Below, piece by piece: positions 9,391-14,358 of a DNA stretch of 64,000 nt. Under the pieces are notes generated by a model. It ran no database searches, had not been told where the DNA came from, and saw only the letters and a program-made list of their open reading frames with translations. The position numbers were made by a program, and so were the translations under genes. Origin of the DNA: a virus (Duplodnaviria > Caudoviricetes); the IMG/VR virus record IMGVR_UViG_3300028833_000087, positions 57,434-121,433 of that record; one strand, given 5' to 3'. Within the stretch, counting starts at the first letter, position 1, and every line of letters begins with the position of its first letter.

Positions 9391-10132
9391 TCCCAACAGT
9401 GATAATTATATTATGAACGAAGAGGGAGAAAGAATTCGCCATCTCGATGATACTACGCTCTCCCGGATAGTTTATATCAATGGTCATGGATCATCTGAGA
9501 TTACATGGCAGTCTGAATTAAAGAAGCAATTCTGTGGTATGTATTATACAGAAAAGCTTTATGACGATGATAACGCTGTGTACTATTTCGATGATGGTTA
9601 TTACAACAAGATGTACAATTCCGGATATATCGTGTTGAATAACTATGACGGTATGAAGGCATCGAAGGAACTCGGAGAAAGTATTTCCAAAAAACTCTTT
9701 TTCAAGATTCATGAAACTTTCGAAATGCTTCAACATGAAAGTATCGAAAGAATCGATGAGAAAGAAAAAGATCCTGTGCTCATTGTGAAGATCAATAGTT
9801 TTCCGTATGAGTATACAATCAGATGTCGTAGTACAACTTCTTTGTCTGAAGCAAATCAGATGAGAAAGATCAATAATCTTCCATTTTATCCGTTTGATGT
9901 AAGAATGGATAAATATGGTACATATTACATTGCATGCTATGCTAAGCTGCAGAACGATGTGATTCTTGATGATCTGGATAGAGAAAGTATAACTCCTCCT
10001 GATAAATACATCATGAATCTACTTATGAATTTCACACAAAAGATAAATAACGAGAGTAAGAGTGATATCTATCATTATGAACCGGTAAAGGCAAAGAAGC
10101 CGGTGATCTATTCCGAGAGGAATGACATTTAA
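9368..10132 (+). CDS. Hypothetical protein (start moved to ATG 9368)
   Basis: GGGAG SD before 9368; followed by terminator 10137-10170. Confidence 0.75.
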   Translation: MIRVINLDPNSDNYIMNEEGERIRHLDDTTLSRIVYINGHGSSEITWQSELKKQFCGMYYTEKLYDDDNAVYYFDDGYYNKMYNSGYIVLNNYDGMKASKELGESISKKLFFKIHETFEMLQHESIERIDEKEKDPVLIVKINSFPYEYTIRCRSTTSLSEANQMRKINNLPFYPFDVRMDKYGTYYIACYAKLQNDVILDDLDRESITPPDKYIMNLLMNFTQKINNESKSDIYHYEPVKAKKPVIYSERNDI

Positions 10133-10197
10133 TGTTAACCCGCTGTGAAAAACAGCGGGTTTTCTTTTTTGACATATACGTAAAGGAGGTGATGCCA

Positions 10198-10656
10198 ATG
10201 GAACTTAAAGACTATGGAGAATCCAGTAAGTTCTACAAGGATGAGTATAAAGAATATAAGAAAGAACTTGAAAAAGTTGAAAAGAACAAAACTGCATTCA
10301 TGTGGATCACTGAATTTTCGAAAAAAGTAGTCGTGGTAATTTTTGTAGCATATATACTTATGGCTATTTTCTCTTGTGTTATGGTATTTCTGTCAATGCG
10401 AATTACAGGTATGGTATCAGGATTAGAAACCTTGATTACTGAAATGAATACTACATTTAGAGATATCGTTGGTGGATATCTTGTAAAAGCAGGTGTAGAG
10501 AATGCTGTAAAGATCGGTGGAAATTACTATGTAGGTGTAGCAGATGCTAGACTTCGAGAACTCAGAGAAAGATTAAATCTTAAAGGAAAAGACACATTTG
10601 AAACAGATGACTGTTCTGATGGAGCTTCCTTTGAGAACTTTGATGAAGAATCATAA
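10198..10656 (+). CDS. Membrane protein (start moved to 10198)
   Basis: AAGGAGGTG SD; the longer listed start overlaps a terminator hairpin; strong TM segment VVVVIFVAYILMAIFSCVMVFL. Confidence 0.7.
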   Translation: MELKDYGESSKFYKDEYKEYKKELEKVEKNKTAFMWITEFSKKVVVVIFVAYILMAIFSCVMVFLSMRITGMVSGLETLITEMNTTFRDIVGGYLVKAGVENAVKIGGNYYVGVADARLRELRERLNLKGKDTFETDDCSDGASFENFDEES

Positions 10657-10734
10657 AATAAGTCCCTAGGGAGAAAATCCCTAGGGATATTTATTTCTGT
10701 CAGCATTAAAAAATTCGATTATATATTATAATTG

Positions 10735-11235
10735 TGATAGGTGGATAGTCATACGGATCCACATTAACTATCCATGCAGCCGAAGCAACAAGTTTCGGAA
10801 CACAGTCGTATCTGGCTACGCAAGCGACGATAAATAAATCAAGTGTAGAAGATGACTCGTCGAACCATATCGCGAGTATAAAAATACATGGTTAAGAATG
10901 GCTTCTAACTTGTAAAAGAAGAATGCAATTTATATTGCATGACTTAGAGCCCGAGCAAAGCTCGTTAAACAATACTCGTAACAGGGTCCTGAATGCGAGT
11001 ATAAATAATATTTGGGTTGTAGCAAGGCTTGAGCTAGCGTAAAAACCAGAGAGCTACACGCTGCTGTAGTAGACCATCGCGTGTATAAATAAATAGAGTG
11101 GTCGAAGCCTTTGATTCCGCATGGAGCCCTGGGTCAAAGGAAAGCCAAGGAGAAAAAAGGGCTCCGTTTTAACAACAGGGCAAAAGAACAACGGGCTAGT
11201 GTAATACTAGCCCGCCCGTAATGGGTTTTATTTTT
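10735..11235 (+). ncRNA. Large structured ncRNA with four repeated pseudoknot modules
   Basis: No ORF, GC-richer than flanks, promoter motif 10719-10731, terminator 11192-11214, many complementary segments. Confidence 0.75.
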
Positions 11236-11678
11236 TATAAGTATTTATAAGGTTCTTCACTTCTACCATCTTTAGTTTCTACAACGATTATACTTCCATC
11301 AAAAAAGCTATAAATCTTAGGATCTAATAAACTGAATCTTGATACATATTTTCTTTTTTCATAATTATCCTGAGGGAATCTTAACACCTCAGCATAATTA
11401 TCACACAGTATAACTTGATGCATATTCTCATAATCTATATCTTGAGATTTTAATTTAAATATATCATAGTATTTATTATTATAAGAATAATGAGTATCAA
11501 TATATGCTTTAGTAGTTATAGGTAATAATTTATAAGTACCATTAAAATTATTAACTGAATTAATTTCATTTGCAATTATAAGCATTTTCTCATCTAAAGT
11601 TCTATATTTATAAAAATTATCCCAATCATTTATAATTTTTATAAGTTCTATTTCAGTATCATTATTTATACAAATCAT
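11235..11678 (-). CDS. Hypothetical protein
   Basis: 147 aa, GAGGAGG SD. Confidence 0.7.
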   Translation of the reverse strand: MICINNDTEIELIKIINDWDNFYKYRTLDEKMLIIANEINSVNNFNGTYKLLPITTKAYIDTHYSYNNKYYDIFKLKSQDIDYENMHQVILCDNYAEVLRFPQDNYEKRKYVSRFSLLDPKIYSFFDGSIIVVETKDGRSEEPYKYL

Positions 11679-11945
11679 CTAAGATACCTCCTCTTTTTAT
11701 TAAGAATGTAAAGCTGTATATTTATAGTTATATATTATAAATATGGAACATATAGTGATTCACCAAAATACTACGCTTACCTCGTAGTCATAACGGGTAC
11801 GATGCACCCGAAGCATCCCCACAGCAAACCTAAGCTAATGGTAAAAATTCTGGCACAGGTATTGGATTCGGCCTGGTTAAATAATAGAATTGTAGGGATA
11901 GGTAAGATCCCACTTCCTAATTATATTAGGAGAAAGGAGGTCGTT

Positions 11946-12965
11946 ATGATAACCTCTACAAATTTTGGTACCGAAAACTTTGCAAAGTCCGCATCAGAAG
12001 TATTGCGGAGCGCTAAATCTGTTGTGTTGTATGTCCACGACGGATTGTTTCATGCTGATGATGTACTGTGTGCTGTTCTGTTCGAGGCACATTATAAAAA
12101 TATCGACAGAAAGGTTATTCGCCGTCGAATGACAATTGATGATATCGAGGAGTTAAAATCACTCGACGATGGCATCACCCGTATTGTCTGTGATACAGGG
12201 TGTCAGGATTTAGTCACAGACAACTTGTTAGTGCTTGATCATCATTCGGATAACAAGTTAACTTACATGAATGGTGTACAGTATGCAGCTGTAGGAAAGT
12301 TTGCTAGCTGCTTACGCTGGGCATTTCCTGATTCCAAGATTGCATCATCAGGCCTGTATAATTTTCAGAAGACAGTGCTCTGGCCAGTTGAAGTTCAGGA
12401 CAATGGTCAGAAAGCTGAGGATCTGAACATCCAACTGTATCCTAATTTATTTAGCTGGATTAGTGTTTTCAACTGCTCATGGAATGAAGATTGGACCGAG
12501 TCTAGTGACAGATTCTTTGAAGCAGTTGAGCTGGCGACTAAAATCCTTGATCGCCAGTTTACAAGATTGGAAGGTCTGGTCGAAGCTTGGGAAATAGTAG
12601 AGAATGAAATTGAATCTCTGAATCCTTCCGAGATACTTGTTCTTGGCAAGTATGTTCCTTGGCAGGAGCCGGTAATTGGATATAATCAGCTACATTGTAA
12701 CCAGATTAAGCTGATTATATTTAAGTCCACCGGAGATCAGTGGAACTGCCAGTGCGTCCCTGTAGCACTTGGTAGTTTTGATACGATAATTAAAGCACCG
12801 GAAGAATGGGGAGGTAAGACAGGAGTTGAGCTTGAAGTCCTGTCTGGTATAGAAGGAGCAGTATTCTGTCACCGTGGACTTTGGCTCACTGTATGGAAAA
12901 CAAAAGACGCTGCTCTTAAAGCTGCAGAATTAATTCTGGATAAAAATTCTACAGAAAGCGAATGA
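11946..12965 (+). CDS. MYG1 (UPF0160) family DHH-like exonuclease; start moved to 11946
   Basis: HDGLFHADD, DHH, GAVFCHRGLW motifs; AAGGAGG SD before 11946. Confidence 0.85.
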   Translation: MITSTNFGTENFAKSASEVLRSAKSVVLYVHDGLFHADDVLCAVLFEAHYKNIDRKVIRRRMTIDDIEELKSLDDGITRIVCDTGCQDLVTDNLLVLDHHSDNKLTYMNGVQYAAVGKFASCLRWAFPDSKIASSGLYNFQKTVLWPVEVQDNGQKAEDLNIQLYPNLFSWISVFNCSWNEDWTESSDRFFEAVELATKILDRQFTRLEGLVEAWEIVENEIESLNPSEILVLGKYVPWQEPVIGYNQLHCNQIKLIIFKSTGDQWNCQCVPVALGSFDTIIKAPEEWGGKTGVELEVLSGIEGAVFCHRGLWLTVWKTKDAALKAAELILDKNSTESE

Positions 12966-14055: not shown

Positions 14056-14358
14056 TTACTTCAGAGACTCTTTGAAAGCCTTAGCCGGCTTAAACTTAGC
14101 AACCTTCTTAGCAGCGATCTTAATGGTCTCACCAGTGATCGGATTTCGCCCTTCACGAGCAGAACGCTTTACAGCTTCGAAAGAACCAAATCCAGCAATC
14201 TGAATCTTATCACCCTTAGCTACAGTCTTTTTGATTACATCAGCTGTAGTGGTGATTACATCAGATACAGTTGCCTCTGTAAGAGTGTTCTTTCCTGCTT
14301 TCTTGTACTCGGTGTTAACCTTTGCCTGTACTGTCTTTGTGAGTTCTTTTTGAGTCAT
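14056..14358 (-). CDS. hup: HU family DNA-binding protein
   Basis: IAGFGSFEAVKRSAREGRNPITGETIKIAA..KFKPAK. Confidence 0.95.
   Translation of the reverse strand: MTQKELTKTVQAKVNTEYKKAGKNTLTEATVSDVITTTADVIKKTVAKGDKIQIAGFGSFEAVKRSAREGRNPITGETIKIAAKKVAKFKPAKAFKESLK

What the first reader, a model, noticed from the sequence alone, without database searches (positions are those of the whole stretch)
10719..11235. About 500-nt phage ncRNA with four repeated H-type pseudoknot modules
Seen: promoter motif, ORF-free GC-richer RNA, terminator. Four modules share stem - loop - stem - ATAAA(T/A)AAT linker - loop-complementary segment: GTCG/CGAC with CTACGC:GTGTAG (10805-10848); ACTCG/CGAGT with AACCAT:ATGGTT (10855-10893); ATACTCGT/GCGAGTAT with CCTGAAT:ATTTGGG (10972-11016); TACACGC/GCGTGTA with GACCAT:GTGGTC (11055-11103). 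The pairing sequences differ but complementarity is kept, i.e. internal covariation. Long-range pairs also exist (AAGGCTT/AAGCCTT, GGAGCCCT/AGGGCTCC). Inference: a multivalent decoy (for example a type III antitoxin-like mimic), a nuclease-resistant RNA, or a member of a large ornate RNA class. The stem+AUAAA unit recalls pistol ribozyme and preQ1-I pseudoknots, but I do not see their full cores.
Basis: partly seen in the sequence, partly recalled or inferred. Interest (0 to 1): 0.75.

Follow-up and report, generated by a model that had tools for sequence, protein, structure and literature searches.

The report
Abundant four-pseudoknot RNA of a rumen phage
A large uncultured rumen phage carries an optional gene for a very abundant, protein-free RNA of about 440 bases built around four copies of one small knot-shaped fold; it matches no catalogued RNA family, and I infer but have not shown that it soaks up a host protein.

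Summary
All four modules sit at the stated coordinates on the + strand. Each has a G+C-rich stem, a conserved (G/U)AUAAA A-rich linker, and a segment that pairs with the stem's own loop. Shuffled copies of the region give 0.03 such modules on average, against 4 observed.

The RNA is real. An exact copy of a recurring phage promoter motif lies at 10719-10731. In two sheep-gut metatranscriptome studies a contig covers 10745-11180, about 30 times deeper than the flanking genes in one of them. Both stop at 11180, before the terminators.

In a bovine-gut relative about 95% identical, exactly 10694-11231 is missing, so the gene is an optional cassette.

No Rfam family reaches its threshold. The only weak hits are to the pistol ribozyme. 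Its P1-plus-linker consensus (acUCGUC...GAguAUAAAuA) is the stem-plus-linker of modules 2 and 3, but the catalytic junction, P3 and the GU site are absent.

I found no homologue of the whole RNA. Two unrelated phage groups carry single knots with the same stem and linker and with compensatory changes in the second helix.

Function is untested. My best guess is a stable, multivalent decoy for a host RNA-binding protein or nuclease. This scan has noted comparable pseudoknot-array RNAs in other phages.

The parts
10662..10688 (.). Bidirectional terminator-like hairpin that closes the upstream gene (10132-10656). It separates that gene from the RNA gene.
   Evidence: 11-bp stem, then a T-run, on both strands
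10694..11231 (+). The optional cassette: promoter, RNA gene and terminators. Exactly this stretch is absent from a relative about 95% identical.
   Evidence: table 5: a 2415-nt contig of DNA run X4 joins 10693 to 11232 (skips 538 nt, 3 nt of shared letters at the joint)
10719..10731 (+). Phage promoter motif TTATATATTATAA
   Evidence: five exact copies in the window (1510, 10719, 11728, 14465, 24101), all on the + strand and just upstream of + strand genes or RNAs
10745..11180 (+). The accumulating RNA (about 436 nt), as covered by metatranscriptome contigs
   Evidence: table 8: X5 contig 10745-11180, depth 114, no differences; X18 contigs 10750-10949 and 10923-11180. Strand assigned from the promoter and from 7 G-U pairs that would be A-C mismatches on the - strand.
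10780..10798 (+). 7-bp hairpin CCGAAGC / GTTTCGG with loop AACAA (predicted only)
10805..10848 (+). Module 1: S1 GUCGU/GCGAC, linker GAUAAAUAAAUCAA, S2 CUACGC/GUGUAG
10855..10893 (+). Module 2: S1 ACUCGU/GCGAGU, linker AUAAAAAUAC, S2 AACCAU/AUGGUU. It gives the best (sub-threshold) pistol hit over 10855-10914.
10923..10940 (+). 7-bp hairpin ATGCAAT / ATTGCAT (predicted only)
10952..10964 (+). 5-bp hairpin CGAGC / GCTCG with an AAA loop (predicted only)
10972..11016 (+). Module 3: S1 AUACUCGU/GCGAGUAU, linker AAAUAAU, S2 CCUGAAU/AUUUGGG (two G-U pairs). It gives the second sub-threshold pistol hit.
11024..11111 (+). Long-range helix AAGGCUU (11024-11030) / AAGCCUU (11105-11111) that encloses module 4. 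The 3' arm can alternatively pair with 10897-10905.
   Evidence: (I8); thermodynamic prediction only
11055..11103 (+). Module 4: S1 UACACGC/GCGUGUA, linker UAAAUAAAUAGA, S2 GACCAU/GUGGUC
11123..11165 (+). 3' hairpin GGAGCCCU / AGGGCUCC with a 27-nt A/G-rich loop (contains AAGGAAA and AAGGAGA). The RNA contigs end 15 nt after it.
11193..11235 (.). Two terminator hairpins (GGGCTAGTGTAATACTAGCCC; GCCCGTAATGGGT plus a T-run). They serve the + strand RNA gene and the convergent - strand ORF 11235-11678.

Best explanation
This is a self-contained, optional gene of an uncultured rumen jumbo phage. It is read from one of the phage's own recurrent promoters and gives a very abundant non-coding RNA of about 436-445 nt (roughly 10745-11180).

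The RNA is organised around four H-type pseudoknots of one design. Each has a G+C-rich stem closed by C-G and G-C pairs. The stem is followed directly by an A-rich strand, (G/U)AUAAA(U/A)AAU, of the kind that lies in the minor groove of stem 1 in preQ1-I, pistol and frameshifter pseudoknots. A second helix of 6-7 bp then forms with the stem's own loop.

Shown: the modules exist, they are far beyond chance, the RNA accumulates, and the cassette is dispensable.

Inferred: the same shape and the same A-rich strand are kept four times while the helices differ, the RNA is present in large excess over the neighbouring messages, it has no antisense target and no reading frame, and it is an accessory cassette. 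From these I infer that it most likely works as a stable, multivalent decoy. In this reading it binds and titrates several copies of one host RNA-binding protein or ribonuclease (a defence or RNA-decay factor) during infection.
For: - Modules and statistics: and (core signature absent from 16 related records).
- Own promoter. Terminators.
- Expression as a discrete species. X5 depth is 114 over 10745-11180, against 2.9 and 4 on flanking contigs. X18, from another study, has depth 7-9 against none. Both end at 11180, while DNA run X3 reads on to 11256.
- Accessory nature: (X4 contig skips 10694-11231).
- No ORF of 60 aa or more.
- No complementarity beyond chance AT-rich 12-14-mers to the rest of the 121-kb record.
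- Strong predicted folding (z -5.07).
- The same S1-linker-S2 design is kept by compensatory changes in two unrelated phage lineages, so the fold itself is under selection elsewhere.
- From established knowledge: multivalent RNA decoys are a known strategy, for example CsrB/RsmZ for CsrA, pseudo-ToxI of phage PhiTE for ToxN, and flavivirus sfRNA for XRN1.
Against: - No partner protein is known or predicted.
- No homologue of the whole RNA was found, so only the four internal copies and two external single-knot families support the fold.
- The helices outside the modules are thermodynamic predictions only.
- If the A-rich strand is buried in a triplex, it may not be available to a protein.
- Contigs cannot show strand, exact ends or true abundance.
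- High abundance alone would equally fit a scaffold RNA or a merely nuclease-proof RNA.
Confidence: 0.45

Rival explanations
1. A nuclease-resistant RNA in the manner of viral xrRNAs and sfRNA. In this reading the pseudoknots mechanically stop a host exoribonuclease (RNase J-type 5'-3', or PNPase / RNase R-type 3'-5'). The RNA then survives and may saturate the decay machinery, which would protect phage messages.
For: - Very high steady-state level relative to neighbours.
- The 3' end lies 15 nt after a stable hairpin rather than at the terminators, as expected from 3' trimming.
- Compact H-type knots with an A-rich strand after stem 1 are the design of coremin-type xrRNAs (PMC10321173, PMC10520033).
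- Family B knots sit just after stop codons, ahead of a hairpin.
- Strong Shine-Dalgarno use in this phage suggests a Bacillota host, which would have RNase J. This last point is inference.
Against: - The RNA has its own promoter, and its 5' end coincides with that promoter, not with a knot. Its making therefore does not need exonuclease stalling.
- The defining features of coremin (3-4-bp hp1, YGAD or YGNNAD loop) are absent.
Confidence: 0.2
2. A polyvalent mimic of type III antitoxins. In this reading each knot neutralises a ToxN/AbiQ-type endoribonuclease of the host's abortive-infection systems.
For: - Phage-borne, toxin-less, multi-pseudoknot RNA.
- The linkers contain AAAU, the ToxN cleavage motif (my own knowledge of Blower et al.).
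- The accessory status of the cassette fits an anti-defence role.
Against: - Modules are not near-identical tandem repeats. Only a 14-nt core recurs, at spacings of 48, 123 and 84 nt.
- The A-rich motif lies inside each knot, not between knots as in ToxI.
- No match to any antitoxin family in Rfam.
- No ToxN-like gene in the 121-kb record. A phage decoy would not need one, however.
Confidence: 0.1
3. A structural or scaffold RNA of a phage ribonucleoprotein, or a large 'ornate' RNA that works through its own architecture (as proposed for ROOL and GOLLD). In this reading the knots are rigid building blocks, not binding sites.
For: - Size, G+C enrichment and a strong fold.
- Possible closing helices that would bundle all four modules: 10772-10777/11119-11124 and 11024-11030/11105-11111.
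- Abundance.
Against: - It is dispensable in a close relative.
- It was not found in more distant relatives.
- No Rfam match to ROOL, GOLLD or others.
- No co-varying partner gene.
Confidence: 0.15
4. An array of self-cleaving (pistol-type or related) ribozymes, or of ligand-binding preQ1-I-like aptamers.
For: - The two best pistol-model hits in the whole 121-kb record are modules 2 and 3.
- Module 2 can even draw a P2 (UACA/UGUA) and a P3 (AGAA/UUCU).
- The order of strands is that of preQ1-I.
Against: - Scores are 15.5 and 11 bits against a cut-off of 34.5.
- There is no junction carrying the catalytic purine-32, G40 and G42, and no GU cleavage junction of the fixed 2-nt length (features from PMC4604425 and PMC6154101).
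- No preQ1 model hit at E <= 10.
- No downstream gene on the + strand to regulate.
- A full-length contig spans all the modules.
Confidence: 0.05
5. The stretch encodes small proteins (39-aa ORF 10923-11042, 36-aa ORF 11111-11221), and the folds are incidental.
For: The two short ORFs exist.
Against: - No Shine-Dalgarno sequence at a workable distance, whereas this phage's genes have strong ones.
- Module 3 lies inside the first ORF.
- The second ORF starts with TTG and runs into the terminator.
- The four modules are far beyond chance.
Confidence: 0.03

Closest known systems
Pistol self-cleaving ribozyme (Rfam RF02679; Harris et al. 2015, PMC4604425)
   Same: - The Rfam consensus for P1 plus the following linker, acUCGUC...GAguAUAAAuA, is letter for letter the stem 1 plus linker of modules 2 and 3.
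- In both, the loop of that hairpin forms a 6-bp pseudoknot.
- Both are phage-associated and common in Bacillota settings.
   Different: - Here the loop-complementary strand follows the linker directly.
- There is no P2-P3 junction with the conserved catalytic nucleotides.
- There is no convincing P3 and no 2-nt GU cleavage junction.
- Scores are 15.5 and 11 bits against 34.5.

It shares a structural sub-module with pistol and is not a member.
preQ1-I riboswitch aptamer (RF00522)
   Same: - The same order of strands: P1 5', loop with P2 5', P1 3', A-rich tail, P2 3'.
- An AUAAAAA-type tail directly after P1. This comparison rests on my own knowledge of the Bacillus subtilis queC aptamer.
   Different: - P2 here is 6-7 bp instead of 3-4 bp, which leaves no obvious ligand pocket.
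- No model hit at E <= 10.
- No regulated gene follows.
Coremin motif xrRNA-C and its Watson-Crick variant xrRNA-WCC of RNA viruses (PMC10520033, PMC10321173)
   Same: - A small hairpin, then a spacer of the type (G/U)UAAA..., whose end pairs with the hairpin loop.
- A compact H-type knot that blocks Xrn1 and ribosomes.
- Earlier notes of this scan liken many small phage knots to it.
   Different: - Coremin has a 3-4-bp hairpin, a 4- or 6-nt YGAD/YGNNAD loop, a 3-bp second helix and an obligatory second hairpin.
- The modules here have 5-8-bp stems, 13-17-nt loops and 6-7-bp second helices.
- Resistance is untested.
Type III antitoxin RNAs (ToxI, CptI, TenpI) and pseudo-ToxI of phage PhiTE
   Same: - Several pseudoknots in one RNA.
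- Phages are known to use toxin-less copies as decoys.
- A-rich motifs.
   Different: - Antitoxins are near-identical tandem repeats of 34-45 nt that are cut between knots.
- Here only a 14-nt core recurs, at irregular spacing, with other hairpins in between.
- No sequence or model similarity.
Strings of pseudoknots in stable RNAs: tmRNA PK1-PK4, the tobamovirus 3'-UTR upstream pseudoknot domain, flavivirus sfRNA
   Same: An RNA of a few hundred nucleotides with three or four H-type knots in a row. sfRNA is abundant and acts as a sponge and nuclease inhibitor.
   Different: - No tRNA-like domain or tag ORF (ARAGORN found none).
- Made from its own promoter rather than by degradation.
- No sequence relation.
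GOLLD and ROOL, large ornate RNAs of phages and prophages
   Same: A large, strongly structured, phage-borne, abundant RNA of unknown function.
   Different: - No model hit.
- Smaller.
- Modular repeat architecture.

Membership tests
Pistol ribozyme (RF02679) | Covariance-model score at or above the gathering score of 34.5 bits | tested here: not met
   15.5 bits for 10855-10914 and 11 bits for 10974-11020
Pistol ribozyme (RF02679) | P1 hairpin followed by the conserved A-rich linker | tested here: met
   The alignment pairs consensus acUCGUC..GAguAUAAAuA with ACUCGUC..GAGUAUAAAAAUA. Module 3 has the same ACUCGU/GCGAGU-AUAAAUA.
Pistol ribozyme (RF02679) | [quoted passage not shown] | tested here: not met
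   The loop-complementary strand follows the linker with 0-1 nt on either side. No junction nucleotides are left to align.
Pistol ribozyme (RF02679) | P3 and P2 joined by a strictly 2-nt junction, usually GU, where cleavage occurs (PMC4604425) | tested here: not met
   In module 2, AGAA/UUCU then AACU then UGUA gives a 4-nt junction. It is 2 nt (CU) only if an A-A mismatch is tolerated. Modules 1, 3 and 4 have nothing comparable.
Pistol ribozyme (RF02679) | Self-cleavage | not testable with these tools
   Needs an in vitro Mg2+ assay
preQ1-I riboswitch (RF00522) | Match to the family model | tested here: not met
   No hit at E <= 10 in 701-nt and 321-nt scans
preQ1-I riboswitch (RF00522) | Sits in the leader of a regulated gene | tested here: not met
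   Terminators and a convergent ORF follow. The next + strand gene has its own promoter at 11728.
Type III antitoxin RNA (ToxI/CptI/TenpI) | Tandem, near-identical repeats of about 34-45 nt | tested here: not met
   Only a 14-nt core recurs, at spacings of 48, 123 and 84 nt
Type III antitoxin RNA (ToxI/CptI/TenpI) | Adjacent ToxN/AbiQ-type toxin gene (a phage decoy may lack it) | tested here: not met
   No PF13958 match at E <= 1 in the 121-kb record. Neighbours have no such domain.
Type III antitoxin RNA (ToxI/CptI/TenpI) | Neutralises, and is processed by, a cognate toxin | not testable with these tools
   Needs co-expression assays
Coremin motif xrRNA-C / xrRNA-WCC | 3-4-bp hp1 with a YGAD (or YGNNAD) loop | tested here: not met
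   Stems are 5-8 bp and loops 13-17 nt. Definition from PMC10520033.
Coremin motif xrRNA-C / xrRNA-WCC | Conserved spacer (GUUAAACUAC) whose end pairs with the loop, followed at once by hp2 | tested here: inconclusive
   The linkers are (G/U)AUAAA..., similar in kind but not in sequence. A hairpin follows some modules closely (M1 is followed by M2), but not all.
Coremin motif xrRNA-C / xrRNA-WCC | Stalls a 5'-3' exoribonuclease | not testable with these tools
   Needs digestion assays
GOLLD, ROOL, raiA, OLE, tmRNA, RNase P, 6S and all other Rfam 15 families | Match at the gathering score | tested here: not met
   No match in the whole 64-kb window. ARAGORN finds no tRNA or tmRNA.

The most novel reading that the evidence does not exclude
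The RNA is a new kind of phage counter-measure: a highly expressed, optional 'RNA moron'. Its four pistol-P1-like, A-minor-braced pseudoknots would act as pseudo-substrates that trap a host RNA-targeting defence nuclease or the main exoribonuclease of a rumen Bacillota host. That would be a bacterial-virus counterpart of flavivirus sfRNA, built from a module shared with a ribozyme class.
Probability: 0.2. Interest if true: 0.85.

Novelty: new variant of a known kind. Interest (0 to 1): 0.6.

Why it matters
Large phages of the gut and rumen carry many unexplained structured RNAs, and very few have any evidence of expression. This one has four things going for it:

- a defined promoter;
- defined approximate ends;
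- high abundance in independent metatranscriptomes;
- a natural presence/absence contrast between close relatives.

That makes it a practical starting point for asking what pseudoknot-array RNAs do.

The finding also links the module to the P1-linker unit of pistol ribozymes and to single gene-end knots in unrelated phages. This suggests a reusable RNA building block (a G+C-rich stem braced by an AUAAA strand and a loop helix) that phages deploy in several settings. If the decoy or nuclease-blocking reading is right, it would add an RNA-based anti-host strategy. It would also provide a compact RNA-stabilising part for engineering.

Tried and rejected
Searches for a homologue of the whole RNA, all negative:
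- blastn (distant mode) of 10690-11240 against 50,697 phage records gave no match.
- Single-protein searches of IMG/VR with the three neighbouring genes gave no close relatives.
- An alignment-based search with the upstream 174-aa protein family gave 23 loci. In all of them the gene is followed directly by a large ORF, and neither blastn nor nhmmer finds the RNA.
- The JGI metagenome scan for two module cores at the M2-M3 spacing returned only tandem repeats, TPR-coding repeats and the like.
- The IMG/VR scan for two degenerate cores 25-55 nt apart returned mainly type I-E CRISPR arrays (GCGGGGATAAA is in that repeat). No locus had two good modules.
- The degenerate module pattern matched nowhere in the 16 records of related phages; among all 24 phage records its 9 matches were 8 sites already picked by my exact pattern plus 1 new one.
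- My own module scanner, run on the full records G001-G005, G008 and G015, found only scattered background hits and no clusters.

Is the stem 1 sequence a widespread motif?
- ACTCGT N8-20 GCGAGTATAAA gave 51 IMG/VR loci.
- A control with a non-complementary 3' arm gave 38.
- So most hits are chance.
- Only a subset has a loop-complementary strand: 10 of 43 distinct hits at p < 0.1, against 2 of 30 in the control.

Other negatives:
- Rfam found nothing on 18 of those loci except two tRNAs.
- Families A and B gave no pistol hit.
- 16 phage records held no true pistol.
- There are no antisense targets in the 121-kb record.
- 'Relatives' cannot be drawn for a virus record.
- MAFFT could not align the four modules' 5' arms, so their pair table was made by coordinates.
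- The runs laid showed no sequence variants inside the RNA, so they gave no covariation.
- The array of ACTCG-NNNN-CGAGT palindromes in L088 and L093 has a 21-nt sub-period and looks like DNA iterons, not an antitoxin array.
Full report
**What is there.** The window is the second half of a 121-kb IMG/VR virus contig, estimated 49% complete. It is therefore a phage of roughly 250 kb. It has a 1604-aa multisubunit-type RNA polymerase beta-like gene 2.4 kb away.

Between the gene at 10132-10656 and the convergent ORF at 11235-11678 lies a stretch with no ORF of 60 aa or more. Its G+C content is 40-45%, against 20-35% around it. It is bounded by terminator-like hairpins at 10662-10688 and 11193-11226. 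As RNA it folds far better than shuffles: z is -5.07 on the + strand and -4.46 on the - strand.

**The four modules are real.**
Among hits with at least three G-C pairs in stem 1, it found only one other, inside the ORF at 12069.
- The repeat finder reports four copies of a 14-nt core, GCG(A/T)(C/G)(G/T)ATAAA(T/A)A(A/T), at 10824, 10872, 10995 and 11079.
- One thousand dinucleotide-preserving shuffles of 10745-11180 gave a mean of 0.03 modules and never more than one. The definition was written after seeing the modules.
- The degenerate signature with a 5' arm matched nowhere in the 16 records of related phages. Across all 24 phage records (about 3.3 Mb) it matched 9 times in 8 records, 8 of them sites already selected by my exact pattern. 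The backwards control matched 4 times.
- Two long-range arms sit 2 nt away from where a simple count puts them: AAGCCTT is at 11105-11111 and AGGGCTCC at 11158-11165.

**Anatomy and internal covariation**. Counting outwards from the loop-closing pair, stem 1 reads as follows:
- M1: U-G, G-C, C-G, U-A, G-C
- M2: U-G, G-C, C-G, U-A, C-G, A-U
- M3: as M2, plus U-A, A-U
- M4: C-G, G-C, C-G, A-U, C-G, A-U, U-A

Two pairs are therefore invariant (G-C, C-G), and two show changes on both sides (U-A to A-U, G-C to C-G).

Stem 2 differs in every module but stays complementary: CUACGC/GUGUAG, AACCAU/AUGGUU, CCUGAAU/AUUUGGG and GACCAU/GUGGUC. Duplex energies are -5.5 to -8.9 kcal/mol.

The strand after stem 1 always begins (G/U)AUAAA. 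Seven G-U pairs would be A-C mismatches on the other strand. Together with the promoter, this assigns the RNA to the + strand.

**It is transcribed and accumulates.**
- TTATATATTATAA at 10719-10731 is one of five exact copies in the window. All are on the + strand and each is just upstream of a + strand gene or RNA (1510, 10719, 11728, 14465, 24101). Further copies lie in the other half of the contig.
- Twenty-four public runs from 13 studies, from sheep and bovine gut or rumen, hold part of the 3-kb stretch. I laid four of them.
- In sheep-gut metatranscriptome X5, one 436-nt contig covers 10745-11180 with no difference, at depth 114. The only phage contigs on either side have depths of 2.9 and 4.
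- In X18, from a different study, two contigs cover 10750-11180 at depth 7-9, and the flanks are empty.
- Both runs stop at 11180. That is 15 nt after the hairpin at 11123-11165 and short of the terminators. DNA run X3 reads on to 11256.
- Contigs cannot give strand or exact ends. The pattern nevertheless fits a discrete, stable RNA of about 436-445 nt whose 3' end is trimmed or terminated early.

**It is an optional cassette.** In bovine-gut DNA run X4, a 2415-nt contig of a relative joins 10693 directly to 11232. The relative shows 111 differences over about 2230 aligned bases. The contig thus skips exactly the promoter, the RNA and the terminators (table 5). Whether this reflects an insertion here or a deletion there cannot be told. 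There are no terminal repeats, only 3 shared letters at the joint.

**Comparison with known families.**
- No Rfam 15 family reaches its threshold in the window.
- At permissive thresholds the only module-related hit is the pistol ribozyme: 15.5 bits for 10855-10914. In the whole 121-kb record the two best pistol hits are modules 2 and 3, at 15.5 and 11 bits against a cut-off of 34.5.
- The alignment is informative. The pistol consensus for P1 and the following linker, acUCGUC...GAguAUAAAuA, is the stem 1 plus linker of these modules.
- Pistol is defined by P1, P2, P3, a pseudoknot between the P1 loop and the P2-P3 junction, ten conserved nucleotides and a 2-nt GU cleavage junction (PMC4604425, PMC6154101). 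Here the loop complement follows the linker directly, so the catalytic junction is absent.
- The modules therefore share a structural sub-unit with pistol but are not ribozymes of that class.
- preQ1-I has the same strand order, but gives no hit.
- Antitoxin families give no hit. The modules are not near-identical tandem repeats, and the record has no ToxN.
- The features that define coremin-type xrRNAs (3-4-bp hairpin, YGAD loop; PMC10520033, PMC10321173) are not met.

**Relatives.**
- I found no homologue of the whole RNA.
- The exact stem 1 plus linker of modules 2 and 3 occurs in 51 IMG/VR loci. A non-complementary control gives 38, so most of these are chance.
- A subset is real.
- Family A comprises seven marine-type phage contigs. 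Family B comprises three phages of about 210 kb, four copies in all, each placed just after a stop codon and ahead of a hairpin.
- In both families the second helix is kept through compensatory changes at three pairs. Paired cells are 97-98%, against 19-44% when the partner is slid.
- This design is therefore a selected RNA fold in independent lineages. Whether those knots are homologous to the modules here or convergent is open.

**How it most likely works.**
- Shown: four copies of one fold, high accumulation, own promoter, dispensability, no reading frame with a ribosome-binding site, and no antisense target in the 121 kb available.
- Inferred: selection keeps the shape and the A-rich strand while the helices drift. 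This is what one expects if each module presents the same surface to a protein, and four of them on an abundant RNA make a sponge.
- My leading reading (about 0.45) is a multivalent decoy for a host RNA-binding protein or nuclease.
- The main rival (0.2) is that the knots simply make the RNA exonuclease-proof, like sfRNA. A type III antitoxin mimic is a narrower version (0.1). A scaffold RNA (0.15), a ribozyme or aptamer array (0.05) and small proteins (0.03) follow.
- The helices outside the modules are thermodynamic predictions only. They include a possible closing helix at 10772-10777/11119-11124 and the alternatives around 11104-11112.

**Novelty and score.**
- The RNA belongs to no catalogued family. 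In the data I could reach it appears confined to one rumen phage lineage.
- Its kind, however, is not unprecedented: a phage-borne structured RNA made of serial pseudoknots. Earlier notes of this scan describe comparable pseudoknot-array RNAs in other uncultured phages. I used those notes as leads only.
- I rate it a new variant of a known kind, with interest 0.6. The evidence for reality and expression is strong, it offers a neat natural presence/absence contrast, and the link to the pistol P1-linker unit is unexpected. Against that, there are no homologues and no functional evidence.

Noticed in passing
L034:9117-9178, L051:2831-2892(-), L068:7223-7284, L043:814-875(-), L045:2287-2348(-), L046:1628-1689(-), L052:1275-1336(-): Family A is a conserved intergenic element of marine-type phage contigs: ACUCGU(A/C)GUUGAU-N5-UAAUUUAGCGAGUAUAAA...ACGAAC-N5'. 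Its loop and downstream strands covary (CACCA/UGGUG against AGUCA/UGACU). No Rfam family matches. In two loci a tRNA-like sequence follows.
   Followed up: partly
L036:1345-1396, L042:9618-9669, L070:248-299 and 577-628: Family B is a compact 40-nt H-type pseudoknot. It has a 6-bp stem ACUCGU/RCGAGU, a 9-nt AUAAAYAAW strand and a 7-bp second helix with three compensatory pairs. It is placed a few bases after stop codons, ahead of a hairpin, in three phages of about 210 kb. It may be the 'gene-end pseudoknot' that earlier notes of this scan describe.
   Followed up: partly
L088:72-393 and L093:8321-8457: An array with a 63-nt period and a 21-nt sub-period, made of ACTCG-NNNN-CGAGT palindromes, next to a 245-aa ORF on the opposite strand. 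It looks like DNA iterons or operators rather than an RNA array.
   Followed up: partly
L129, L136, L138, L146, L161, L178, L180 and others: The degenerate core GCGNSKATAAA also matches the type I-E CRISPR repeat (…GCGGGGATAAACCG). The pattern scan therefore pulled out many 61-nt-period CRISPR arrays in IMG/VR proviruses. Anyone reusing this motif should be aware of that.
   Followed up: no
window 11235-11678 (- strand): A 147-aa ORF with only about 20% G+C and no family hit, convergent with the RNA gene. In DNA run X3, the stretch 11421-11723 attracts many contigs under 90% identity at high summed depth. This suggests a widespread or low-complexity sequence.
   Followed up: no
window 11802-12965: A MYG1/UPF0160 (DHH-type exonuclease-like) gene with its own copy of the promoter motif at 11728. 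In the relative about 95% identical (X4), a 97-nt patch at 12017-12113 is replaced by diverged sequence of the same length.
   Followed up: no
window 10132-10656 and loci L002-L024: The upstream 174-aa protein belongs to a family with no Pfam domain (PHROG 17876, unknown function). It has invariant EK.K...W..EFSKK and GGY..K...EN..KIGGNYY motifs. In 23 IMG/VR phage contigs it is followed directly by a 750-950-aa ORF that this phage does not have at that place.
   Followed up: partly
window 14056-14358 (- strand): An HU-type DNA-binding protein gene (PF00216, E 2.8e-25).
   Followed up: no
window 10250-10283: A 34-nt piece inside the upstream gene is matched, with 4-5 differences, by very deep 41-nt contigs in both RNA runs (depth 173 and 600). 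These are probably an unrelated abundant RNA sharing a short stretch.
   Followed up: no
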